Below, piece by piece: positions 8,563 to 64,000 of a stretch of 64,000 nucleotides of DNA. Position numbers and translations under genes: made by a program. The notes under the pieces were generated by a model, which was given only the letters and a program-made list of their open reading frames with translations, was not told the origin of the DNA and did no database searches. The DNA comes from a virus. Positions within the stretch are counted from its first letter, which is position 1, and the number at the start of each line of letters is the position of its first letter. The stretch covers positions 32,308 through 96,307 of IMG/VR virus record IMGVR_UViG_3300037294_000399; one strand, 5' to 3'.

Positions 8563-9567
8563 ATGGAAATTAAAAACTATAAAGAAGAAATAATTAAAAA
8601 TGCAGAAGTTGGTGTTGTTGTGGGGAGATTTCAAACAAACCGATTACATACAGGACATATTGACTTGATTAGCCACGTCCTATCAAATCATAAAAAAACT
8701 GTACTTATCCTAGGTGTGTCTAGAGTACAAAACACCAAGAAAAACCCTTTGGATTTTGCTAGTCGTAAAGCTATGATTCAAAAATTGTTTCCTAGTTTAA
8801 TGATTTTACCAGTAATGGACCAAAGATACGATGAGAAATGGAGTTCAGAAATTGATTCAGCTATTTCTATGCCGTTTGGTGAAAAGAAAACAGTTATCTA
8901 TGGTAGCCGTGATTCATTTATTCCTCATTACAAAGGTAAGTTTCAAGTTATTGAGTTAGAAGCTATTCCTTACCATAACGCCACAAACATTAGAGCAGAT
9001 ATTGCTAAAGAAACTATTGACTCTACTGATTTTAGGTCTGGTGTTATCTACTCAGCATTCAATCAAAGACCAGTTTCTTATCCAACAGTTGATATCTGTG
9101 CATACAACGATGATGGTGAGATTCTTATGGGTAGAAAACCTAACGAGAAGTATTGGAGATTCGTTGGTGGGTTTGTTGACCCGACAGATGAAAGCTATGA
9201 AAAAGCAGCTTTGAGAGAGTTTCATGAAGAAACTGGTGGTAATTGTGTTATCAGCGACTTAAAATATATCTTAAGTCACAGAGTAAAAGATTGGAGATAT
9301 GCCAAAGAAGAGTCTGGGATAATGACTACTTTATTCTTGGGGCGCAGAAATATGGGTTACGCAAAAGCTAGTGATGATATCGCAGATGTTAAATGGTTTC
9401 CAATTAGGGAGTTCAGCAACTTTGATACTGTTAGAACTAAAGTAATGCCAGAACACCGTGAAATGATGTTAGCTTTGGTTAACAAAGTGTACAGCGAAAA
9501 ACTTATACCAAATATTGGTGAAAGATTAGCTGAAAGAACTGATAATGTAACTTACATTGGTGAATAA
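8563..9567 (+). CDS. nadM: bifunctional NMN adenylyltransferase / ADP-ribose Nudix hydrolase (NadM-Nudix)
   Basis: VGRFQ..HTGH, KNPL, Nudix box GGFVD..E..A.RE..EETG. Confidence 0.9.
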   Translation: MEIKNYKEEIIKNAEVGVVVGRFQTNRLHTGHIDLISHVLSNHKKTVLILGVSRVQNTKKNPLDFASRKAMIQKLFPSLMILPVMDQRYDEKWSSEIDSAISMPFGEKKTVIYGSRDSFIPHYKGKFQVIELEAIPYHNATNIRADIAKETIDSTDFRSGVIYSAFNQRPVSYPTVDICAYNDDGEILMGRKPNEKYWRFVGGFVDPTDESYEKAALREFHEETGGNCVISDLKYILSHRVKDWRYAKEESGIMTTLFLGRRNMGYAKASDDIADVKWFPIREFSNFDTVRTKVMPEHREMMLALVNKVYSEKLIPNIGERLAERTDNVTYIGE

Positions 9568-9587
9568 TATTAAATAAAAATAAAAAT

Positions 9588-12111
9588 ATGGGTTTACAAA
9601 AAAAAGTAATTGAAAAATTAGAAACTGCAATAGAAAACAAAGATTGGGTGTCTATTGAAGATATTCAAAAGTATCTTAGCAAAGCATTAACAAAACCGAA
9701 CAACTTGATTTTGTGTTCAGATGCTTACAAATATTCACATCACAGATTCTATGGTGGTGAAATGACCAAGATGGTATCTTACTTGGAATCAAGAGGTGGT
9801 AAATTCTCTGAGACAGTATTCTACGGATTACAAATCTTCTTAAAACAATACTTAGAAGGTGTTGCCATTACGAAAGAAGAAGTTGATGAAGCATTTGACT
9901 ATTTAGGTACAAAGCACGGTGTGTTTGGCCGTGACGATGTATTCGATAGAACAAAATTCGATTATATTATCGAGATGTATGATGGTAAATTACCTATCAG
10001 CCTAAAAGCAGTTCCAGAAGGTTAACAAATGTAGCCATTCATACTAGTAATAGTATGTCTAAAGAAATCTAATTGCTGGGAACCCCTTAGAGCCTTTAAC
10101 ACTACAACGTAGATAGCAATATCAAGCGTGAATGTTTGAAAAGATAAAGGATTGGGAAATCAGCAGCGAAGTTTCTAAATTTAATTTCAATTAATTAGTG
10201 CGTTTTTAAAAGTTTATGATATTTATTAATAAACGCATTAATCATGAGAGAGTATAAAAAAGGGAAAGAATCACCATTGTTTAAAGATTTAACTGGTGAA
10301 AAGTTTGGTAAATTAACAGCTAAAAACTACATTTACGATGACACAAAGAAATATAAAAAACATATGTGGATTTGTGATTGTGATTGTGGTAATGAAGCTA
10401 AAGTTAGAACCAATGAATTAACAAAGGGTGAAAGAACACAGTGTAAACAATGTTCAATCAATGAAGTATCAAAAACTAGAACAAGACCAGATAATGGTGC
10501 ATTAATAACAAGAGTTATTAAACAGTATAAAGCTGGTGCTAAAAGAAGAGGTTATGAATTCTTATTAACAGATGAAAAACTAAAGGAATTAATTTTTTCA
10601 AATTGTTATTATTGTGGTGAAGAACCAAAAATAAATAAGGGTGAAGAACGTTATTTTAGAGGTGGTTTAGAGTTTAAAAGAAATGGAATTGATAGATTGA
10701 ATAATAAAATTGGTTATACAAATGAAAATGTTGTTACTTGTTGTGAAACATGTAATAGAGCTAAAATGTGTTTAGAGCATGATGATTTTTTAACCCTTAT
10801 TAATAAAATATACTTAAATTTAGAAAAACGTTCAACGACTATCCCACAAGGGAGTACAGAACAAGCTAATGGTTCTGGAAATGGTTTTGACCCTAGTAAA
10901 TAGGGTTTTGATATAGTCTAGTCTTTATCTAAAGATAAAGCAGTTCGTAAGAGAACGTATTCAACTGTTGCGAGTTGAGTAGAATGTAAACGTCAGTAGT
11001 TGGAACTAAAAATGTTTTGTTCGTTATCGAATCTTTAGATGAGAACTGCGCATGGTTAACCAATTTTTTAGAAACTATCTTGTTGCAAGTATGGTATCCA
11101 ATTACGGTTGCTACACTTTCAAGAGAAGTTCGTAAAATCGTAGATGCTAGTTTTCAAAAAAACACATCATATGATACTGGGTTAAGAGAGTTTCTGGTTG
11201 ATTACGTGTTGAATGACTTCGGTTTCCGTGGTGTATCGTCTGTACAATCAGCTGGTATTGGTGGGTCTGCTCACTTGGTAAACTTTAGAGGTTCTGATAC
11301 AATCATGGCATCTAAATACATCAGAGATTACTACAATACAGAAACAGTTTATGGGTTATCTATCCCAGCAACTGAACACTCTATCATGACACTTAAAGGT
11401 GAAGAAGGTGAATTGGAAATGATGAAACGAGTACTTACAACATTCCCTACTGGGTTAGTTGCGTGTGTATCTGATTCATACAATATCTTTCGTGCATGTT
11501 CTGAGTATTGGGGAACTGAATTGAGAGACTTAGTACTATCTCGCCCATCAGAACCAGGAAATCAACTAGTTATCCGTCCAGATTCTGGTGACGTGTTAAT
11601 GACATTGAAAGAAATTTTCACTATATTATTCGACAAATTCGGTTACACAGTAAACGATAAGGGTTATAAAGTGTTACCACCACAAGTTCGTGTGATTCAA
11701 GGTGATGGTGTTAATCTAGATTCAATTAAAGAAATCTACGCATTGTTAGAGGAAGAAAAAATATCACCAGAAAACTTAGCTTTAGGTATGGGTGGTAAAT
11801 TATTACAAGCAGTGGACCGAGACACATGTGCATTTGCTACCAAAGCTTGTACAGCCGTAGTTGACGGTGTTGAAGTTGAAGTACAGAAAAATCCTACCGA
11901 AATGGACGAGAATGGGAATTTAACAAAAAGTTTCAAAAAGTCTAAAAAGGGTAGATTGAAGTTGGTAAAAACTGATAACGGTTATATTACTTTAACTTCT
12001 AAAGATGAAGGATTCGAAGAAGCTAAGGATGAACTCGTAGAGGTTTTCCGCATGGGAGATATTCTTAAAGAGTGGTCTTTTGAGGAAATCCGTGAGAGAG
12101 CCAAAATTTAA
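9588..12111 (+). CDS. nadV: nicotinamide phosphoribosyltransferase, exons 9588-10022 and 10993-12111
   Basis: SDAYKYSH, AVPEG|SVVGTKNVLF after splicing, DFGFRG, PATEHS, VSDSY, IRPDSGD, IQGDG. Confidence 0.92.
10023..10992 (+). mobile_element. group I intron in NAMPT
   Basis: 5' exon ends in U pairing with GCCATTC (P1); P/Q AATTGCTGGGAA and AATCAGCAG; R/S TCAACGACTA and GATATAGTC; terminal G; splicing restores the frame. Confidence 0.9.
10244..10903 (+). CDS. intron-encoded HNH endonuclease
   Basis: DLTGEKFGKL, CDCDCG, CYYCG, GIDRLNN..GY...NVVTCCETCN..K. Confidence 0.88.
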   Translation: MREYKKGKESPLFKDLTGEKFGKLTAKNYIYDDTKKYKKHMWICDCDCGNEAKVRTNELTKGERTQCKQCSINEVSKTRTRPDNGALITRVIKQYKAGAKRRGYEFLLTDEKLKELIFSNCYYCGEEPKINKGEERYFRGGLEFKRNGIDRLNNKIGYTNENVVTCCETCNRAKMCLEHDDFLTLINKIYLNLEKRSTTIPQGSTEQANGSGNGFDPSK

Positions 12112-29362: not shown

Positions 29363-31345
29363 ATGATTAAAATAAACGATATATTAGAAGGAAGACTAAG
29401 CATGAACGCTAGTGGGTCCGCATATTTGGTGAGTGAGAATTTACCAAAAGACATTTATGTCCATAAAACCAACACTAACCATGCGTTGCATTTGGATAAG
29501 GTAAAGATTGAAGTAATGGCTGGTCAAGGTCGTACACTTGAGGGTAAAGTAATTGAGGTGGTTGAACGCTTTAGAACTGAGTTTGTTGGTGTAATCCAAA
29601 TAAACCCTAAATTTGCTTTCTTTGTTCCAGATAGCAACAAACTACCTATTGACTTTTTTATTCCATTAAACAAGACAATGGGTGCTACAGAAGGCCAAAA
29701 AGTAATTGCAAGTATAACTGAATGGAAAGAAGGTGCTAAAAACCCTAACGGTGAAGTTATAAGAATTATAGGTAATGCTGGTGAACACGAAACTGAGATA
29801 CATAGTATTTTAGAAGAATATGGTTTACCTTACGATTTTGAAACAGATGTAATCATGGAGGCCAATTTAATTTCCACAGAAATCACACAAGAAGAAATTG
29901 ATAAACGTAGAGATATGCGTGATATACTTACCTTCACAATTGACCCAGCTGACGCCAAAGACTTTGACGATGCGTTGAGTGTGGAATGGGTTGACGGTGA
30001 GTTGTATGTTGGTGTTCATATTGCCGATGTATCACATTACTTACGTCCAGATACCGAATTGGATAAAGAAGCTTTTGCCAGAGGTACAAGTGTTTACTTA
30101 GTTGATAGATGTGTCCCTATGCTTCCAGAGAACTTATCTAACGGTTTGTGTTCGTTAAGACCTAACGAAGATAAATTATGTTTTTCTGCTATTTTTAAGT
30201 TAGACCACAATGGTCATGTGTTAGAAGAATGGTTTGGTAGAACCGTAATTAATTCTGACCACAGATTTACCTACGAAGAAGCACAAGCTATCATTGAATT
30301 AGATAAGCTACCTAAAGACGATGTTGAGGGTAGAACCAAAATACTATTGGAAGACACTGGTTTAAGGTTATTAGGTTGGGACCCAGCTAGAAAACTAGCC
30401 GATGCTGTATTGGCGTTGAACAAGATAGCTAAAAAGATGCGTAAAGTTCGTTTGATAAAAGGTTCTTTATCATTTGATAAACAAGAGGTCAAATTCAAAT
30501 TGGATGAGAATAGTAAACCAACTGGGATTATATTCAAGGTTGCCAAAGACTCAAACAAACTTATTGAAGAATACATGTTGTTAGCGAATAAACACGTAGC
30601 TCAGTTCATCAACACGAAAGGTTTACCCAACGTGAATAGAGCACACGATAAACCTAACGAAGAAAAGTTAGCAGCGTTAAAAGACTTTATTGTTCAGTTT
30701 GGTTACGATATTAAAATCGATACACCAGAAGAAACTACAAAAACACTTAACAAATTGTTAACGGATGTGCGTGGTACTGCTGAAGAAGATATGGTTAATA
30801 ACTTAGTTGTTAGGACAATGCAAAAAGCAAACTATACGACAAAAAACATTGGTCACTATGGTTTAGGTTTTGCTAACTATTCACACTTTACTAGTCCAAT
30901 CAGACGTTACAGTGATATATTAGTTCATAGATTGTTAGCTTTGTATTTGGATGAGAACAAGAAAACAACACCTAAGTTAGAGAAGTTAGAAACTAGATGT
31001 ATTCATTTATCTGAAAGAGAAAAGAAAGCACAGAAAGCTGAACGTGACTCAATCAAATTCATGCAATGTATTTACATGAGTGAACACATAGGTAAAGTAT
31101 TTGAAGGTATCGTTACATCAGTTGCTGAGTATGGTGTTTTCGTTGAAATACTTGAGAACAAATGCGAAGGACTTATTAAGTTATCTGAAATTTCTGGTGA
31201 TACATATCAAGTTGATATGAGTAACTATTGTGTTAAAGGGTATAACACAGGTGATAAGATTCGTTTGGGTGATATGGTTCACGTTGTAGTTTCTAGTGTA
31301 GATATCGATAAAAAGAATATTAATTTAACAATGATTCGATTATAG
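29363..31345 (+). CDS. rnr: ribonuclease R
   Basis: FTIDP.DAKDFDDA, HIADVSHY, LIEEYMLLAN, HFTSPIRRY.D, S1 domain. Confidence 0.95.
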   Translation: MIKINDILEGRLSMNASGSAYLVSENLPKDIYVHKTNTNHALHLDKVKIEVMAGQGRTLEGKVIEVVERFRTEFVGVIQINPKFAFFVPDSNKLPIDFFIPLNKTMGATEGQKVIASITEWKEGAKNPNGEVIRIIGNAGEHETEIHSILEEYGLPYDFETDVIMEANLISTEITQEEIDKRRDMRDILTFTIDPADAKDFDDALSVEWVDGELYVGVHIADVSHYLRPDTELDKEAFARGTSVYLVDRCVPMLPENLSNGLCSLRPNEDKLCFSAIFKLDHNGHVLEEWFGRTVINSDHRFTYEEAQAIIELDKLPKDDVEGRTKILLEDTGLRLLGWDPARKLADAVLALNKIAKKMRKVRLIKGSLSFDKQEVKFKLDENSKPTGIIFKVAKDSNKLIEEYMLLANKHVAQFINTKGLPNVNRAHDKPNEEKLAALKDFIVQFGYDIKIDTPEETTKTLNKLLTDVRGTAEEDMVNNLVVRTMQKANYTTKNIGHYGLGFANYSHFTSPIRRYSDILVHRLLALYLDENKKTTPKLEKLETRCIHLSEREKKAQKAERDSIKFMQCIYMSEHIGKVFEGIVTSVAEYGVFVEILENKCEGLIKLSEISGDTYQVDMSNYCVKGYNTGDKIRLGDMVHVVVSSVDIDKKNINLTMIRL

Positions 31346-32635: not shown

Positions 32636-32786
32636 TGTGGATACAAAAATAAATAAAACAAACGAAATTCATTTAAGAATCACAGATTCTATTAAAACTG
32701 AATTGCAGCAATATTGTTTGGAAAACAATATTGGTATGTCTAAATTAATTACTAAACTGATTCTAAAAGAATTAGAAAATAAATAA
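32636..32786 (+). CDS. ribbon-helix-helix-like protein
   Basis: VDTKINKTNEIHLRITDSIKTELQQYCLENNIGMSKLITKLILKELENK, ATATTTAT upstream, TAATG overlap with tnpB. Confidence 0.65.
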
Positions 32787-33952
32787 TGATTAGAACCTCT
32801 AAACATATTATCTCAAATGCTAATCAAGGGAAGCTTGCTTCCCTTGACCAAGTATTTATTGATTATAAACATGATTTAGAAATATATATTAATTATATCA
32901 TAGAAGGTATATTACCCCTTAAACCTAATTTATCTAGCAAATTACTCCCTACAGAAGTAATAAAACATAGTAGATATAAACAAATAATTTATAAACAAGC
33001 ATCAGAAATTATAAGAAGTCAATTAGATAAATCAAAGAAAAAAAGATATTCATCATATAAAAAAATATATACATATATGATGAAGAATCATCCTGATTCT
33101 TCATTCTGTAAAACTAAATTTTCTGACCTATCATTAAATAATATATTAAAAACTAAATATTTCACTAAACCTAATCTAAATAATGTTAGTATTAATTTAG
33201 ATGAAAGATTTTTTAACATACAAAATGGGAACCATTTTGATAAGTTTGTTAATCTTAAATTACCTTATTTTAATGAAAAGGGCGCTCGTGCCCTACAAAT
33301 AAATATTCCATTTAATTATCATAAACATTCGTTATCATTTAAACATAATACGTTTAAATTAAGAAATAATATACAAATTAAGAAGGTAAAAAATAATTAT
33401 TATATTGCGTTAATTTGGGAAAAAGAGATTGATATTAAAACCAATGGCAAAGCCATTGGAATTGATATGGGTTATAAAAAATTAATTGTTACATCTGATA
33501 ATCAGTTTATTAATGGTGATTTAAGTGATATATATTCTAAAATAAGCAGATGTAAACAAGGTAGTAATGGATTTAAACGAAGTTTAAATCATAGAGATAA
33601 TGAAATAAATAGGTTATGTAATTTAATTAACATCGAAGATGTTAATAATATAATCATAGAAGATTTAGTATCAGTTAAAACTGGTAAAAAATATTTTACA
33701 AATAAAATACAAAGATGGTCTTATGTCAAGACCATTGATAAAATAAATAGAATATGTGAGGATAACGGTATTATGCTGGTGAAGGTTTCACCAGCATATA
33801 CCTCACAAACATGTTCTAGTTGTGGTGTTGTAGATAAGAAGTCTCGCCAAGGCGAGAACTTCAAATGTACAAGTTGTGAATATGAAATAGATGCTGATTA
33901 TAATGCAAGTATTAATATTTATGATAGAGGGATTTATAGTTTCTCTAACTAA
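32786..33952 (+). CDS. tnpB: TnpB RNA-guided nuclease
   Basis: RuvC GIDMG, IIIEDL, DAD.NA; Zn finger TSQTCSSCG..CTSC. Confidence 0.9.
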   Translation: MIRTSKHIISNANQGKLASLDQVFIDYKHDLEIYINYIIEGILPLKPNLSSKLLPTEVIKHSRYKQIIYKQASEIIRSQLDKSKKKRYSSYKKIYTYMMKNHPDSSFCKTKFSDLSLNNILKTKYFTKPNLNNVSINLDERFFNIQNGNHFDKFVNLKLPYFNEKGARALQINIPFNYHKHSLSFKHNTFKLRNNIQIKKVKNNYYIALIWEKEIDIKTNGKAIGIDMGYKKLIVTSDNQFINGDLSDIYSKISRCKQGSNGFKRSLNHRDNEINRLCNLINIEDVNNIIIEDLVSVKTGKKYFTNKIQRWSYVKTIDKINRICEDNGIMLVKVSPAYTSQTCSSCGVVDKKSRQGENFKCTSCEYEIDADYNASINIYDRGIYSFSN

Positions 33953-37806: not shown

Positions 37807-37904
37807 GCGAGAGTGGCGAAGTGGTAAACGCTAAGGTCTTTAGCCCGAAGTACAAGGGAACAACTAGGGACTGGGTGTCGGTGGTTCGAGTCCACCCTCT
37901 CGCA
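37807..37904 (+). ncRNA. tRNA-like RNA with elongated anticodon arm
   Basis: GCGAGAG/CTCTCGC, D arm GCGAAGTGGTAAACGC, GTCTTTAG/CTAGGGAC stem with 20-nt loop, GGTGGTTCGAGTCCACC. Confidence 0.75.
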
Positions 37905-38001
37905 CAAAATTGGGGAATAGCAACATGAAGGTCGGCAAACTTTCAGACGGTTATAATCCTTTCTATCACGTTTAGCTTTGCCGAGCGACATAGTGATAGT
38001 T

Positions 38002-59075: not shown

Positions 59076-59685
59076 GACGAGAATACTGGAATCATCGAGA
59101 TAAACCAACAGATTTTATTAATTTAGTTGATATTGAATACAATTACCCAAACAACAAATACACATTTGACTTCTCAAAGATAACACAGGAAGAACAAAAT
59201 GCGTTATGGGAAATAATCGACCATGTAAGAAAGATGAGGACTGAATGGGTGCAAACAAAACCTTATGATTTAACCAGAGGTGATGAAGTTACTACCAGTT
59301 GGAAGTATGAATATATTATCTTTGAATTGGTTAGACTATATAAAACATTTGATTGGAAAAAGAATATTATGATTTATTATGGGTATTAATTTGTTTATTA
59401 CTGATTAATTTCATACCTTTACACCATTATAAAACTAAACTATGAAAACATTCGGATTATTTATGTTATTGTTCCTATTCATTACAATAGGACTTTCTCT
59501 GTTGCTACCTAAAGAATGGTCAGCACCAGAAATACTTTTACAAAGCACATTACTTGCGTATATCGTGCAACAGTATCGTACAAAAGAAATTGACGATGAA
59601 TAATGGTTAGACACGAAGTAACAAATCACGAAAATTATAACAGATAAAATTTGCATATAATAAATATTATATGTACCTTTGTACC

Positions 59686-60327
59686 ATGGAAGCAGAAAAA
59701 GACATATTCGACCAATGGAAAGATAAAAGAGATTCTAAACCTTGGATAATTAGAAAATTAAGGTTTATACCCATGTGGTGGCGACATGATGGCAGATTCA
59801 TGGGCAAAGAGTTCGTTAGAGGCGTTAAAAAACTTATCTATTGGTTTCCTATCATATGGAAAGATAGAGATTGGGATAGCCACTATATCTTCGAAATACT
59901 AAAACATAAACTATCAGCACAAGCCAAATATATTGGGGATAGAGATATTCATACCAGAGCAAAACAAGATGCAAGTACAATGAGGCTTTGTGTTCGTTTA
60001 ATGAAACTTGTACAAGATGAGTTTTATTCAAGTGAGTATTCTGATTATCATAAAACAAAACATTGGTTCGAACCTGTACCAGACAACGATAAACTATCAC
60101 GTTGGGAAACTAGGATATTGGAAGAAAACTTTGACGACTACTTTAAAAAATATCCTAGGATATACAAACAAGTAATAAATGGAAAAGGTATCTTCACCCT
60201 TGATGGTGAAAATCAAATTGAAATAAAACAAAAAATTGCAATGAATATTGGATATATAAACCATGAACGTGCAAGAAAACTGTTGTTTAATATAATGGAA
60301 AACAATATTGAAGGTTGGTGGGACTAA
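59686..60327 (+). CDS. conserved phage hypothetical protein
   Basis: WFPIIWKDRDWD..Y, ends GWWD. Confidence 0.75.
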   Translation: MEAEKDIFDQWKDKRDSKPWIIRKLRFIPMWWRHDGRFMGKEFVRGVKKLIYWFPIIWKDRDWDSHYIFEILKHKLSAQAKYIGDRDIHTRAKQDASTMRLCVRLMKLVQDEFYSSEYSDYHKTKHWFEPVPDNDKLSRWETRILEENFDDYFKKYPRIYKQVINGKGIFTLDGENQIEIKQKIAMNIGYINHERARKLLFNIMENNIEGWWD

Positions 60328-60371: not shown

Positions 60372-61523
60372 ATGAAAGAAGAATTAACAAAACAAGAAGA
60401 GGCGTTAACATTGGTAGTAAGAGACAAATGGATAAATAAAGCCTACAATGATTGCTCAATGGGTATTGACAAATCAAAATTTGAAACAGGTATAAGTTGG
60501 TTATATAATAACCTTGTTAGTTTACCTAACCCACAAGTTATCTATTGTGATTCGATAATTGATGCTATTATTAAAATAACTATGTTTAAGGATTTTAATA
60601 TGGATGTATCAGAATACCCAACTATTTTTGAAAAATATAAAAATAGTAAATTAAAATCCGATTTTTTAAAAAAAATGGATGAAAACAAAGAATTGAAAAG
60701 TTCATACATTGGGTGGTCAAATTTTGGTTGGATTTCGTTTTATGATTATTTCACACAGATTGGTGTGTTAAATGATGAAAAGTTCAATATGTACCAATCA
60801 TTAATTGAGTCAAATGTTTTTGAAACGTTTGAATTTGAAAATGTTGTTTTCGCTGTACAACCACCTAAATACATTCTTTCTGAAAATTTATTGCCTCACA
60901 ACACAGAGGATTTTGCGATTGAATTTAATGATGGTACTGGTTGCTATTTTATCAATGGTTTAAATGTTGATGCTGATTTATTTTTAAAGTTGAAAAATAG
61001 AAAGTATACATTTAGTGATTTTATTAAGGAAGAGAACGAAGAAACCAAGTCAATGATTTTACTTTACATTGAAAGTAGAGATGGCACAGAAGCTGTTTTT
61101 GACTTCATGCGAGATAATCTAAAACAGGTTGATTCATTTATGAATGATACTAAAAATGAATATTTGGAAGGCACAACTAGGTCTAACAGAATTGGTGTTT
61201 ACACACTATTTAAGGGTCAAATAAATGACGTAAATATTGCATATGTAAGGTGTTATTGCCCATCAACAGATAGAATGTTTTTTTTAGGTGTTGAGCCAAG
61301 TTATGACTCCGCTAAAGATGCTATCGCTAGTTTGTACAGAGTACCTACTATTTTAAAAAATAATATTGTTAGTATTAGTAGACAAGGTGAGAAATTTTCA
61401 ACTATATTTGATGATGATATTACCTATAAATTAGAAAATGGTGAATTTAGTAATGATGAACTTCAACGTTACTCTAGTTTATCGGGTAACGATTACTTCA
61501 AATTAATGACTTATGAATTTTAA
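60372..61523 (+). CDS. DUF6745-like protein
   Basis: ELT..QE......DKW, P.VIYCDS, GW.SFYDYF, H....AI.F.DG...Y.ING, V.C.CPST.R.FFL.V.P. Confidence 0.65.
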   Translation: MKEELTKQEEALTLVVRDKWINKAYNDCSMGIDKSKFETGISWLYNNLVSLPNPQVIYCDSIIDAIIKITMFKDFNMDVSEYPTIFEKYKNSKLKSDFLKKMDENKELKSSYIGWSNFGWISFYDYFTQIGVLNDEKFNMYQSLIESNVFETFEFENVVFAVQPPKYILSENLLPHNTEDFAIEFNDGTGCYFINGLNVDADLFLKLKNRKYTFSDFIKEENEETKSMILLYIESRDGTEAVFDFMRDNLKQVDSFMNDTKNEYLEGTTRSNRIGVYTLFKGQINDVNIAYVRCYCPSTDRMFFLGVEPSYDSAKDAIASLYRVPTILKNNIVSISRQGEKFSTIFDDDITYKLENGEFSNDELQRYSSLSGNDYFKLMTYEF

Positions 61524-61812
61524 TATAGGTAAATCAATAAAAGATAAAGTAAGGAATTCAGTAAGTGATTCAGTAAATGGTTCAGTAAGGAATTCAGTAA
61601 GGAATTCAGTAAGTGATTCAGTAAAGAAGTCAGTATTTAAATCAGTAAGTAATTCAGTATGGGATTCAGTAATTGATTCAGTATGGGGTTCAGTAAGGAA
61701 GTCAGTATTTAAATCAGTAAGTGATTCAGTAAGGAAGTCAGTAAGGAAGTCAGTAAGTGATTCAGTATGGGATTCAGTAAGTGATTCAGTAAGTGATTCA
61801 GTAAAATTTTAA
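61513..61812 (+). CDS. tetrapeptide (xxSV)-repeat protein 1
   Basis: GKSIKDK leader + about 21 12-nt units. Confidence 0.65.
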   Translation: MNFNIGKSIKDKVRNSVSDSVNGSVRNSVRNSVSDSVKKSVFKSVSNSVWDSVIDSVWGSVRKSVFKSVSDSVRKSVRKSVSDSVWDSVSDSVSDSVKF

Positions 61813-61836
61813 ACAATGATACTAGGTAAATAAACA

Positions 61837-62046
61837 ATGAAACTAGGTAAATCAATAAAAGATAAAGTAAGTGATTCAGTAATTGATTCAGTATGGGATT
61901 CAGTAATTGATTCAGTAAGTGATTCAGTAAGGAAGTCAGTAAGTGATTCAGTAAGGAAGTCAGTAAGTGATTCAGTATGGGATTCAGTAATTGATTCAGT
62001 AAGTGATTCAGTAAGGAAGTCAGTAAGTGATTCAGTAAAATTTTAA
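61837..62046 (+). CDS. tetrapeptide-repeat protein 2
   Basis: MKLGKSIKDKV(SDSV..)n KF. Confidence 0.65.
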   Translation: MKLGKSIKDKVSDSVIDSVWDSVIDSVSDSVRKSVSDSVRKSVSDSVWDSVIDSVSDSVRKSVSDSVKF

Positions 62047-62055
62047 ACAATAAAT

Positions 62056-62301
62056 ATGAGTAGTATGGAAAAATTAAATGTGGGTGTAAATGTAGCACCA
62101 AGTAGTACAAGTGGTCACTTCATCAAAAACGCTAAAAAAGTAGTAGATATTGATGCAGTAAATGAAACGTTCTTAGTTGAGGGTGAGTCTGTTTTAACAA
62201 CAGAAAATCACACAACTTTAGAACAAAAGAAAAGTTGTTTAATCACAACACAAGTTGTTTACAATCCTTTGAAAGCGGTTTACGAAAAGTCAAAAGATTA
62301 A
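62056..62301 (+). CDS. small beta-rich protein resembling usual DUF6745 neighbours
   Basis: SGH, L...NH.TL, Q.VYNP, terminal D. Confidence 0.65.
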   Translation: MSSMEKLNVGVNVAPSSTSGHFIKNAKKVVDIDAVNETFLVEGESVLTTENHTTLEQKKSCLITTQVVYNPLKAVYEKSKD

Positions 62302-62310
62302 TTAAATTAG

Positions 62311-62349
62311 GTGCAGAGGGAAAAATAATAACCTTCTGCACTTTTTTAT
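62311..62349 (+). terminator. rho-independent terminator
   Basis: GTGCAGAGGG...CCTTCTGCAC + T run. Confidence 0.7.
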
Positions 62350-62356
62350 TAAAACA

Positions 62357-62536
62357 ATGATACTAGGTAAGTCAATAAAAGGTAAAGTAAGGGGTTCAGT
62401 AAGTGATTCAGTAAGTAATAAAGTACTTGATAAAGTACTTGATTCAGTAAGTGGTTCAGTATGGTATTCAGTATGGAATTCAGTATGGAATTCAGTAACG
62501 GATTTAATGCCAAAAATAAACAATGATACTAGGTAA
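62357..62536 (+). CDS. tetrapeptide-repeat protein 3 (absent from ORF track)
   Basis: MILGKSIKGKVRGSVSDSVSNKVLDKVLDSVSGSVWYSVWNSVWNSVTDLMPKINNDTR. Confidence 0.6.
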   Translation: MILGKSIKGKVRGSVSDSVSNKVLDKVLDSVSGSVWYSVWNSVWNSVTDLMPKINNDTR

Positions 62537-62681
62537 ATCAATAAAAGATAAATTAAGGAATTCAGTATATAATTCAGTACGTGATTCAGTATATAATTCA
62601 GTACGTGATTCAGTATGGTATTCAGTAAGTGATTCAGTAAGGAAGTCAGTAAGTAATTCAATACCAAAGATAAAACGATAA
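62523..62681 (+). CDS. tetrapeptide-repeat protein 4 (absent from ORF track)
   Basis: MILGKSIKDKLRNSVYNSVRDSVYNSVRDSVWYSVSDSVRKSVSNSIPKIKR. Confidence 0.6.
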   Translation: MILGKSIKDKLRNSVYNSVRDSVYNSVRDSVWYSVSDSVRKSVSNSIPKIKR

Positions 62682-62685
62682 AACA

Positions 62686-62886
62686 ATGAAACTAGGTGAG
62701 TCAATAAAAGATAAATTAAGGAATTCAGTATGTGTTTCAGTAAGTGGTTCAGTAAGTGATTCAGTAAGGAATTCAGTATGGTATTCAGTAAGTGATTCAG
62801 TAAGGAAGTCAGTAAGTAATTCAGTAAGTAATTCAGTAAGTGATTCAGTAAGTGATTCAGTACCAAATATAACACAACAATCCTAA
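62686..62886 (+). CDS. tetrapeptide-repeat protein 5
   Basis: MKLGESIKDKL(RNSV..)n. Confidence 0.6.
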   Translation: MKLGESIKDKLRNSVCVSVSGSVSDSVRNSVWYSVSDSVRKSVSNSVSNSVSDSVSDSVPNITQQS

Positions 62887-64000
62887 TACCTCCCTCTTCA
62901 ACGAAAAAATAATTGTGGTAATAGATTTGCATATGTAAAAGATAATATGTACCTTTGTAGTAATTAATAACAATACTAGAAACACATTTGTGTACATACA
63001 AAAAAAACCAAATAATACAATGAAAGAAATAAAATATAAAATAGAAAAACAACTCGTGCTGAAACATGATGTCATTCTAGGAAGTACATAAGAATTACAA
63101 GACGTTCTAGTTGAGGTAAGCGATAATCTAGATGGTGAAAAAGCAATGAACAATGAAGTAAGTGTAGTTATTCCCATAGAGAAAACCAAACCCATATAGT
63201 GATGTAATGACACAAGAAACCATAGAACAAAACTTGGGTTCTAACAATGTAAATTCTTATGGTTTTCCCCCTACAACAATAAATGCTCATACAATAAGCG
63301 GTGGACAAATCATAGTAGAGAAAATACGAAAAGAAAGATAAATAATGAAGTAGATAAAAATACCACCATGTGTCGATAAATAATGAAGTAGATAATCCAT
63401 ATGTACACAAAAGTGTACACGGTTCCACCGTGTCCCAAAGGGACATTCTACAACTACTTTATATACAGACTTATACAAAAAACCATGTACTTTTGTACCT
63501 GTGCCGAACACGTAAATTAAATAGGGTGTTTTTAACAAGAAAGTGGAAATTTGTGGTAAAATGTGGTAAAAAGGTTTGATTTCATAGCTAAAAAATAGAA
63601 AATGGTTTTTTCATGGGCAATATGGTATAAATTAATAATAAAAAATAATACAAAATAATGCTGAAAAGTTTTATACTGTTCAAACACTCTCGACAAATTT
63701 TCGCCTGAAATTTTTGGACATAGGTATTCCATGACGCAAAAGCGAAAAATTTTTGGCAAACAAATTTAGCCCAAAGTTACGATAAACTTGGACAAAACGC
63801 TACTGTTCTCCCATGTAGATACAATGGGCAGTAAAGCCTTAACACGTTCACTATATGTGAGGTGTCGAATATGGTACAAAGGTATTAAAAACTTTTTTAA
63901 TAAACAAGCGAAATAAATTTGGATATTAAATATTTTTGTTGTATCTTCGCAAACTTTTTTCAATGGTATAATGATTTAACTACAAAGGTACAAAATGATT

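What the first reader, a model, noticed from the sequence alone, without database searches (positions are those of the whole stretch)
60372..62886. DUF6745-like locus with five separate variable tetrapeptide-repeat mini-genes
Seen: five short ORFs with a shared leader (G[K/E]SIK[D/G]K) followed by about 9-21 xxSV units. TCAGTA is nearly invariant while the other two codons come from a small alphabet (SD, RK, RN, WD, ID, WY, YN, FK). All arrays stay in frame, and an abortive leader MILGK* sits at 61816. From recall (unverified), DUF6745 proteins often carry such repeats internally and sit next to a small His-containing partner like 62056; here the large gene lacks the repeats and they are split into standalone genes. 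Inference: a combinatorial, recombination-diversified set of interchangeable subunits or decoys, or a donor reservoir for a specificity module.
Basis: partly seen in the sequence, partly recalled or inferred. Interest (0 to 1): 0.75.

Follow-up and report, generated by a model that had tools for sequence, protein, structure and literature searches.

The report
Detached repeat mini-genes beside phage DUF6745
An uncultured salt-lake phage carries five tiny tandem genes, each a free-standing, fast-changing copy of a four-amino-acid repeat (x-x-Ser-Val) that related phages build into one unstudied protein (DUF6745); a sister phage has about 40 of them, but what they do is still unknown.

Summary

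Most relatives of the large protein carry an internal period-4 tract (xxSV, xxNV, xxQV, xSQL) between their N and C domains. One well-supported group lacks the tract. 20 of its 22 loci carry 1-40 capped xxSV mini-genes, against none of about 67 tract-bearing loci. The partner follows the large gene in 40 of 40 viral loci.

A sister phage whose large gene is 99.3% identical in DNA has about 40 mini-genes instead of 5. Four contigs of one metagenome diverge exactly inside the first mini-gene.

Translation is supported by fixed N and C caps, stereotyped ATGA overlaps, absence of in-frame stops (0 seen, 12 expected) and frozen silent sites next to variable coding sites. No RNA or protein data exist.

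Function is inferred only. I read the mini-genes as a library of recognition helices or decoys working with DUF6745 and its partner in phage-host conflict. Tweety gp54 is an analogue, not a relative. No fold match gave a function.

Short-read assemblies break inside the arrays, so exact unit order is unverified. This scan reported the same phenomenon before on other DNA.

The parts
60372..61523 (+). Large gene, 383 aa: a repeat-less member of the DUF6745 family. It has an N domain of about 75 aa, a fixed two-helix linker where relatives carry the tetrapeptide tract, and a C domain of about 265 aa.
   Evidence: There are 438 homologues at E<=0.001, many carrying PF20530. The direct Pfam hit is only 12 bits against a cut-off of 27. 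4 of 11 clade members match PF20530. The AF2 model has pLDDT 85.9, and its top BFVD match is the DUF6745 protein of Microcystis phage LMM01, E 5e-13.
61513..61812 (+). Mini-gene 1, 99 aa. Its N-cap is MNFNIGKSIKDKV, followed by about 21 xxSV units and the tail KF. It overlaps the last 11 nt of the large gene in another frame.
61816..61833 (+). Abortive leader MILGK-stop. The same element sits at the same place in the sister phage.
61837..62046 (+). Mini-gene 2, 69 aa: N-cap MKLGKSIKDKV and tail KF. It is a recent paralogue of mini-gene 1.
62056..62301 (+). Partner gene, 81 aa. It is a small all-beta protein with a C-terminal helix and invariant residues A14, S17, G20, H21, H52, L55, Q66, V68 and P71.
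   Evidence: tblastn finds it downstream of the large gene in 40 of 40 viral loci. Alignment A2. AF2 pLDDT 89.8. Only 53 clusters at 50% identity among 1.84 billion proteins, nearly all about 80 aa.
62309..62350 (+). Terminator-like hairpin (12-bp stem, 11-nt loop) followed by a U run. It separates the large gene, minis 1-2 and the partner from minis 3-5.
   Evidence: The MFE is -18.3 kcal/mol, z -5.4, with 0 of 200 shuffles as good. It is identical in the sister phage. A different hairpin plus T run sits at the same place in L057.
62357..62536 (+). Mini-gene 3, 59 aa: N-cap MILGKSIKGKV, with a tail that runs into the next leader.
62523..62681 (+). Mini-gene 4, 52 aa: N-cap MILGKSIKDKL and C-cap IPKIKR. 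It overlaps mini-gene 3 by 14 nt.
62686..62886 (+). Mini-gene 5, 66 aa: N-cap MKLGESIKDKL and C-cap VPNITQQS. It shares a multi-unit block with mini-gene 4.

Best explanation
The five mini-ORFs are real, translated genes. Each is a free-standing copy of the hypervariable period-4 tract that most DUF6745-family phage proteins carry between their N and C domains. Each copy has a short conserved N-cap (M-x-L-G-K-S-I-K-D-K-V) and a C-cap (I/V-P-K/N-I-K-x). In this phage lineage the tract was removed from the large protein, a fixed two-helix linker took its place, and the tract lives on as a tandem, translationally coupled gene family.

The family expands, contracts and reshuffles by duplication of 12-nt units and of whole genes, far faster than the flanking genes change. 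Ser-Val is held fixed, while the two other residues sample a small alphabet rich in S, R, W, Y, G, D, N and K. These steps are shown by the evidence.

The following is inferred. Each mini-protein is a long helix with one fixed stripe and one variable face. The set forms a library of alternative recognition or decoy surfaces that works together with the DUF6745 core and its 81-aa partner, probably through the conserved caps. Its likely role is in phage-host conflict, possibly counter-defence. Because free copies can stand in for the internal tract, the tract is more than a passive spacer.
For: Complementary distribution:
- Among complete large genes in IMG/VR loci, 17 tract-bearing ones have no mini-genes, while 6 of 12 tract-less ones have them.
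- In metagenome loci, 14 of 16 members of the window's tract-less group have xxSV mini-genes, and about 50 tract-bearing loci have none.
- On a tree of the C domain, the window's group (18 rows, 13 with minis) is one side of a branch with 99% SH-aLRT support. A second case with xxQV minis (L032) lies inside the tract-bearing part.

Same residue alphabet:
- Internal tracts such as P0090 and P0071 use the same alphabet as the minis (SD, RD, RN, WN, WG, SG before SV).
- Across the family the tract differs in DNA (xxNV, xxQV, xSEL, xSQL, xSSL) but keeps the same period and chemistry. This points to a protein-level role.

Coding signals:
- 93-100% of the periodic DNA lies inside cap-initiated ORFs.
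- Gene spacings are stereotyped at -4 (ATGA), +4, +7 and -14 nt.
- 365 units of the sister phage contain 0 in-frame stops, against 12.3 +/- 3.1 expected from column shuffles (minimum 3 in 2000).
- Leader variants are mostly synonymous (TCA to TCG, AAA to AAG, CTA to TTA).
- Silent positions of Ser, Val, Asp, Asn and Gly are nearly frozen, while first and second codon positions of x1 and x2 vary.

Rate of change:
- Between the window and the sister phage, the large gene is identical at 1144 of 1152 nt and the partner at 245 of 246. The sister phage has about 40 mini-genes with different content, against 5 here.
- Four contigs of one metagenome are identical for 2948 nt and then diverge inside the first mini-gene.

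Other support:
- Non-repeat small ORFs with the same N-cap and tail sit at the same places in L015, L016, L064 and L066.
- The ESM Atlas places mini-gene 5 next to all-viral clusters of 59-78 aa, and its structural neighbours are long single helices.
Against: - There is no RNA, ribosome or peptide evidence. No RNA run was listed as a holder.
- Minis 3-5 lie behind a strong terminator-like hairpin, so how well they are expressed is open.
- One minus-strand frame shares third codon positions with the + frame and is also open through the arrays, so the synonymous-change argument alone does not fix the strand.
- Zero stops in the window's own 64 units is not significant on its own (0.9 expected).
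- No docking or complex model was made here, and no fold match gives either conserved protein a function.
- The counter-defence role rests only on analogy with the unrelated Tweety gp54.
- Six tract-less loci in three other lineages have no mini-genes within 8 kb, so mini-genes are not always needed.
- The exact array structure in short-read assemblies is uncertain.
Confidence: 0.55

Rival explanations
1. RiPP-like reading. The mini-ORFs are precursor peptides (short leader, repeat core, follower) that are modified or cut by the DUF6745 protein and its partner. The tract-bearing relatives would be enzyme-substrate fusions.
For: There are many tandem genes with conserved caps and a hypervariable core next to two conserved proteins that have invariant Cys, His, Ser, Arg and Glu residues: C294, C296, R301 and R337-E340 in the large protein, and H21 and H52 in the partner. 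The fused and split forms alternate.
Against: No RiPP enzyme, protease or transporter family is found in the large protein, the partner or the neighbours. The N-cap is only about 10 aa long. In fused forms the tract sits between two folded domains, not at an end. No fold match supports an enzyme.
Confidence: 0.1
2. The mini-ORFs are tolerated junk: slippage-prone remnants of a tract that spread by unequal recombination, with no function of their own.
For: Copy number varies from 1 to about 40 between close relatives. There is an abortive leader and a truncated copy. Minis 3-5 lie behind a terminator. Silent sites are frozen, which fits recent copying.
Against: The ORFs stay intact with their caps in lineages whose large proteins are only 52-70% identical. 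In-frame stops are depleted. ATGA coupling is stereotyped. The distribution is strictly complementary with the internal tract. Up to 7 kb is kept in a phage genome.
Confidence: 0.12
3. The function lies in the DNA or RNA: the 12-nt units act as binding sites (iteron-like) or as an RNA sponge, and the ORFs are incidental.
For: The core TCAGTA is nearly invariant even at silent sites. Several frames on both strands are open.
Against: Relatives keep the protein period and chemistry with quite different DNA units. Inside tract-bearing genes the units are certainly translated. Start codons, caps and stops are conserved.
Confidence: 0.05
4. Donor cassettes: the mini-genes are a silent reservoir that is copied by gene conversion or a retroelement into an expressed specificity gene.
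For: The copies are tandem and diverse, with shared flanks.
Against: No recipient tract exists in the large gene or elsewhere in the 96-kb contig. No reverse transcriptase is present. Each copy has its own start, stop and coupling.
Confidence: 0.03

Closest known systems
DUF6745 (Pfam PF20530) phage proteins with an internal tetrapeptide tract, e.g. P0090, P0071, P0049 and P0056, and the DUF6745 protein of Microcystis phage LMM01
   Same: The N and C domains are homologous (44-62% identity over the C domain). The same 80-aa partner follows the gene. The repeat has the same period-4 pattern and the same variable alphabet. The LMM01 protein is the top structural match in BFVD.
   Different: Here the large protein has no tract. 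The tract copies are separate capped genes, present in 5 to about 40 copies. The family itself has no known function, and no paper in the searched library mentions it.
Mycobacteriophage Tweety gp54 (with Che8 gp57 and PMC gp51): tetrapeptide-repeat protein whose repeat number tunes escape from the Phrann gp29/gp30 defence (PMC2884959, PMC9262239)
   Same: Both use a 12-nt unit with two fixed and two variable residues. Silent positions are invariant while first and second codon positions vary. Copy number differs between close phages. W, G, S and Y are among the variable residues (one search compared).
   Different: The proteins are not homologous: there is no Pfam hit, hhalign probability against the large-protein profile is 0.1%, and gp55 is unrelated to the partner. 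The Tweety repeat is AAxx and sits inside one protein. The proposed Tweety mechanism, spacing of two end domains, cannot apply to free mini-proteins.
Multi-copy hypervariable precursor families with a conserved leader, such as prochlorosins (my own knowledge; not checked in the library)
   Same: Many paralogous short genes have a conserved leader and a variable core, and lie beside conserved larger genes.
   Different: No lanthipeptide or other RiPP enzyme family was detected. The leader is very short, the core is a strict period-4 repeat, and the setting is a phage.

Membership tests
DUF6745 (PF20530) | Match to the Pfam model above its gathering score | tested here: not met
   The window protein scores 12 bits (E 0.13) against a cut-off of 27.
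DUF6745 (PF20530) | Full-length homology to proteins that carry the domain | tested here: met
   Homologues at 55-60% identity over 100% of the length carry PF20530. 4 of 11 members of the window's group match it, best E 3.9e-6.
DUF6745 (PF20530) | Same predicted fold as a named DUF6745 protein | tested here: met
   The top BFVD hit is the DUF6745 protein of Microcystis phage LMM01: E 5.3e-13, TM 0.49, 368 columns.
DUF6745 + partner module | An 80-aa partner with invariant GH...NH residues immediately downstream | tested here: met
   Found in 40 of 40 viral loci. Here minis 1-2 are inserted between the two genes.
Tweety gp54-type tunable repeat proteins | Homology of the flanking domains | tested here: not met
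   Pfam gives nothing and hhalign probability is 0.1%. gp55 against the partner also gives 0.1%.
Tweety gp54-type tunable repeat proteins | 12-nt unit with two fixed and two variable residues, and frozen silent sites | tested here: met
   One search compared with the description in PMC2884959.
Tweety gp54-type tunable repeat proteins | Repeat number tunes counter-defence | not testable with these tools
   This needs plating on defence-carrying hosts.
Diversity-generating retroelement | A reverse transcriptase and a template/variable repeat pair | tested here: not met
   There is no RVT_1 match in the 96-kb contig, which is about 27% complete. The variable sites are not adenine-specific.
RiPP precursor cluster | A recognisable modifying enzyme, protease or exporter next to the precursors | tested here: inconclusive
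   No such family appears in Pfam, NCBIfam or PHROGs for the neighbours. The two conserved proteins have no known fold.

The most novel reading that the evidence does not exclude
Phages of this group carry a germline-encoded repertoire of exchangeable recognition helices. One DUF6745 core with its partner can be armed in trans by any of up to about 40 hypervariable mini-proteins that plug in through conserved caps. That would give a combinatorial, fast-evolving targeting system, a phage counterpart of an innate receptor repertoire, used against variable host defence or surface factors.
Probability: 0.2. Interest if true: 0.9.

Novelty: new variant of a known kind. Interest (0 to 1): 0.68.

Why it matters
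DUF6745 proteins with hypervariable tetrapeptide tracts are common in uncultured phages, yet no paper in the searched library mentions them. The split form seen here is informative in three ways:

- It shows that the tract is a module with a role of its own, not merely a spacer.
- It shows that phages keep and diversify dozens of copies of that module.
- The strict either-or distribution ties the mini-proteins to the DUF6745 core and its partner.

This turns an anonymous family into a testable three-part system of core, partner and a library of about 60-aa peptides. It would also extend the idea of 'tunable' repeat proteins, known only from mycobacteriophage Tweety, to a much larger and unrelated group of phages.

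Tried and rejected
Tools and searches that gave nothing:
- tblastn of the large protein against 50,697 cultured-phage records found no match. The only DNA matches were to the upstream gene in Flavobacterium immuto phages, plus low-complexity hits in ClfA SD repeats.
- Fold searches gave nothing significant. For the large protein, Foldseek PDB had no hit at E<=0.001 and VIA-align's best was Z 4.8. For the partner, Foldseek had no hit, VIA-align's best was Z 4.2 to LptA, and ESM Atlas TM scores to Lpt-type beta proteins were 0.5-0.56. I treat all of these as noise.
- A profile search of solved structures found nothing.
- Pfam, PHROGs, NCBIfam and PADLOC hits of the mini-proteins are compositional and lie below all cut-offs.
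- A word-based search with mini-gene 4 found no scored relative.
- The genome collection scan gave only four MAG contigs.
- No RNA holder was listed.
- The literature searches for DUF6745, PF20530 and 'tetrapeptide repeat + phage + hypervariable' found no paper.

Readings considered and rejected:
- Minus-strand gene. The minus frames are open but have no conserved start, they switch frame at each junction, and the + frame is the one used inside tract-bearing relatives.
- DGR.
- Donor cassettes.
- Assembly artefact as the origin of the locus.

Limits on the read data:
- The read-depth figures are not copy numbers and were not used as such.
- Parts without cover in run X1 after 63027 prove nothing.
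Full report
**Setting.** The window is the last 64 kb of a 96,307-b IMG/VR viral contig that CheckV rates about 27% complete. It has about 30% G+C and almost all of its genes lie on the + strand. It carries tRNAs and accessory genes: NAPRTase, NUDIX, an RNase II/R-type RNB protein, a TnpB-like protein and an AAA ATPase. The gene just upstream of the finding (59671-60327) is 72% identical in DNA to a hypothetical gene of Flavobacterium phage immuto. The runs that hold the locus are salt-lake metagenomes and one outdoor metagenome. I therefore take it to be an uncultured, probably Bacteroidota-infecting, large phage.

**Observation.**
- The 383-aa large ORF is at 60372-61523.
- The five mini-ORFs are at 61513-61812, 61837-62046, 62357-62536, 62523-62681 and 62686-62886.
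- The abortive MILGK-stop is at 61816.
- The 81-aa non-repeat ORF is at 62056-62301.
- The repeat unit is 12 nt. My parser took 76 four-codon units, eight of which are cap quartets. TCA stands at position 3 in 68 of them and GTA at position 4 in 67. The other two codons give 23 dipeptides.
- The triple-unit pattern occurs 50 times in the contig, only in this locus and only on this strand.

**The large protein.** It scores below the Pfam threshold for DUF6745 (12 bits against 27). It has 438 homologues at E<=0.001, and many of those at 55-60% identity carry PF20530. Four of 11 members of its own group match the model. Its AF2 model (pLDDT 85.9) has the DUF6745 protein of Microcystis phage LMM01 as its best match in BFVD (E 5e-13). 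I file it as a divergent DUF6745-family member. No solved structure resembles it.

**Two architectures.** Homologues that align over only about 70% of the query are longer, at 430-600 aa. They carry an array of 15-70 tetrapeptides between the N domain and the C domain. The array is xxSV in P0071 and P0090, and xxNV in P0049, P0056 and P0060. More distant members carry xxQV, xSEL, xSQL or xSSL arrays. The window protein and about 50 clusters of 383-386 aa have a conserved non-repeat stretch at that place instead, which the model folds into two helices.

**The partner.** tblastn with the 81-aa ORF finds a homologue just downstream of the large gene in 40 of 40 IMG/VR loci. The alignment has nine invariant residues, including two His. 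The model is a small beta protein with a C-terminal helix (pLDDT 89.8). It has no significant solved-structure match. The family is small, with 53 clusters at 50% identity among 1.84 billion proteins, and nearly all of these are about 80 aa.

**Mini-genes go with loss of the tract.**
- In the IMG/VR loci, none of the 17 complete tract-bearing large genes has a mini-gene within 8 kb. Six of the 12 complete tract-less genes do (window, L013, L014, L015, L016, L032).
- In 80 metagenome loci, 14 of the 16 members of the window's tract-less group have xxSV mini-genes. About 50 tract-bearing loci have none.
- The two exceptions have short flanks. One of them, L066, has small non-repeat ORFs with the same N-cap and tail. 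L064, which lies in the same group on the tree but carries only Gly-rich minis, has such ORFs too.
- On a C-domain tree the window's group (18 rows) is one side of a branch with 99% SH-aLRT support. L032, whose minis are of the xxQV type, lies deep inside the tract-bearing part. This gives at least two origins.
- The root is unknown, so the direction of change for the window's group is not shown. For L032, its nesting suggests a change from internal tract to detached copies.

**Are they translated?** The evidence in favour is as follows.
- Every array begins with ATG and a conserved cap and ends in a conserved tail and a stop.
- 93-100% of the periodic DNA lies inside such ORFs in five loci.
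- Neighbouring genes are spaced at -4 (ATGA), +4, +7 or -14 nt.
- Caps are conserved within a lineage and differ between lineages. The window and its sister phage have MxLGKSIKDKV ... IPKIKE; L056-L059 have MILGKPV ... KATNIEL; L062-L068 have MKLGNSVKNKV ... RPTRNIRx; L070 has MxIGNSVKDS ... SITNENR.
- Leader variants are mostly synonymous.
- 365 units of the sister phage, taken without regard to ORF calls, contain no in-frame stop, against 12.3 +/- 3.1 expected.
- Inside tract-bearing relatives the same frame is certainly read.

There are also limits.
- One minus frame shares third codon positions with the + frame and is open too.
- The window's own 64 units are too few for the stop test.
- There is no expression evidence.
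- Minis 3-5 lie behind a strong hairpin plus U run (62309-62350; z -5.4). It is identical in the sister phage. A different hairpin at the same place follows the partner in L057.

**How fast the arrays change.**
- The sister phage (IMGVR_UViG_3300023242_000006) is identical at 1144 of 1152 nt of the large gene and 245 of 246 nt of the partner, against 595 of 657 nt for the upstream gene.
- Even so, its first mini-gene has about 10 units of different content instead of 21, and its second is cut short. Behind the terminator it has about 37 further mini-genes running to the contig end, where the window has three.
- Four contigs of one metagenome are identical for 2948-2951 nt and then diverge inside the first mini-gene. 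Two of them run together up to 4739.
- Within the window, minis 1 and 2 share units and the KF tail, and minis 4 and 5 share a multi-unit block. This points to recent gene duplication.
- In the unit, nt 1-5 have entropies of 0.6-1.6 bits and nt 7-12 of 0-0.9 bits. Asp is always GAT, Gly always GGT, and Ser at x1 almost always AGT. Diversity therefore sits at coding positions while silent positions are frozen. The same pattern was described for Tweety gp54 (PMC2884959).
- No reverse transcriptase is present.

**Reliability of the assembly.** Contigs of four public runs hold the locus. Run X1 matches the window exactly up to 61681 and then only in pieces of 65-349 nt. All runs break in the arrays and show alternative joints. 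Contigs of X2 and X3 bridge from the last mini-gene into the unique sequence behind it (62797-63300). The locus and its unit types are therefore real, but the unit order and number within each array are not verified.

**Mechanism.**
- Shown: a three-part locus of core, partner and capped tract copies; the either-or relation between internal tract and free copies; and extreme turnover of the copies.
- Inferred: because free copies replace the internal tract, the tract acts as a surface rather than as a mere ruler. The fixed Ser-Val stripe and the caps would serve folding or docking. The variable face, rich in W, R, Y, S, G, D and N, would serve recognition. Those residues are, to my knowledge, typical of binding hot spots.
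- I favour a library of recognition or decoy helices that acts with DUF6745 and its partner in phage-host conflict. My confidence is about 0.55 for the whole statement and about 0.3 for counter-defence specifically.
- Tweety gp54 is the only studied protein of similar build (PMC9262239). It is unrelated in sequence.

**Rivals.** The rivals are RiPP-like precursors, tolerated junk, a DNA- or RNA-level role, and donor cassettes. They are weighed in their own sections.

**Earlier notes.** This scan has reported the same phenomenon on other DNA, with 98 notes in at least 68 genomes. I used those notes as leads only. The docking models they mention were not reproduced here, because both of my folding jobs went to the two conserved proteins.

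Noticed in passing
window 61518-61524: The large gene ends in TTT TAA, and mini-gene 1 is in the +1 frame. A +1 slip of tRNA-Phe on T-TTT at the stop would fuse the large protein to the repeat. Relatives place their mini-genes elsewhere, so this is probably ordinary coupling.
   Followed up: partly
L064:2342-6308: A relative whose large protein is 57% identical carries 16 tandem mini-genes of another kind upstream: MEVISNG followed by (x-Gly)n, 31-109 aa each. This is a second family of hypervariable mini-proteins in the same neighbourhood.
   Followed up: no
L066:3911-4102, L064:9515-9884, L015:6632-6937: These are small non-repeat or decayed-repeat ORFs. They keep the mini-gene N-cap (M-x-[LIV]-G-[KN]), and some also keep the tail. 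They sit at the places where relatives have arrays.
   Followed up: partly
window 62887-64000: The last 1.1 kb of the contig has no ORF above about 90 aa on either strand. Contigs of two runs confirm that it is joined to the last mini-gene. Its nature is unknown.
   Followed up: partly
window 32786-33952: A 388-aa ORF carries a Cas12f1-like TNB domain (TnpB-like) inside the phage genome.
   Followed up: no
window 29363-31345: A 660-aa RNase II/R-type protein (OB, CSD2, RNB and S1 domains) is encoded by the phage.
   Followed up: no
window 37807-37905: ARAGORN calls a 99-nt tRNA-like gene with a four-base anticodon (gccc), next to a tRNA-Lys.
   Followed up: no
window 8563-12111: NUDIX and NAPRTase genes lie close together, which suggests a phage NAD salvage set.
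   Followed up: no
window 60372-62301 compared with L013:8001-9682: The large gene and the partner are 99.3-99.6% identical in DNA between the two phages, while the upstream gene is about 90% identical. The module is either under stronger constraint or was exchanged recently.
   Followed up: partly
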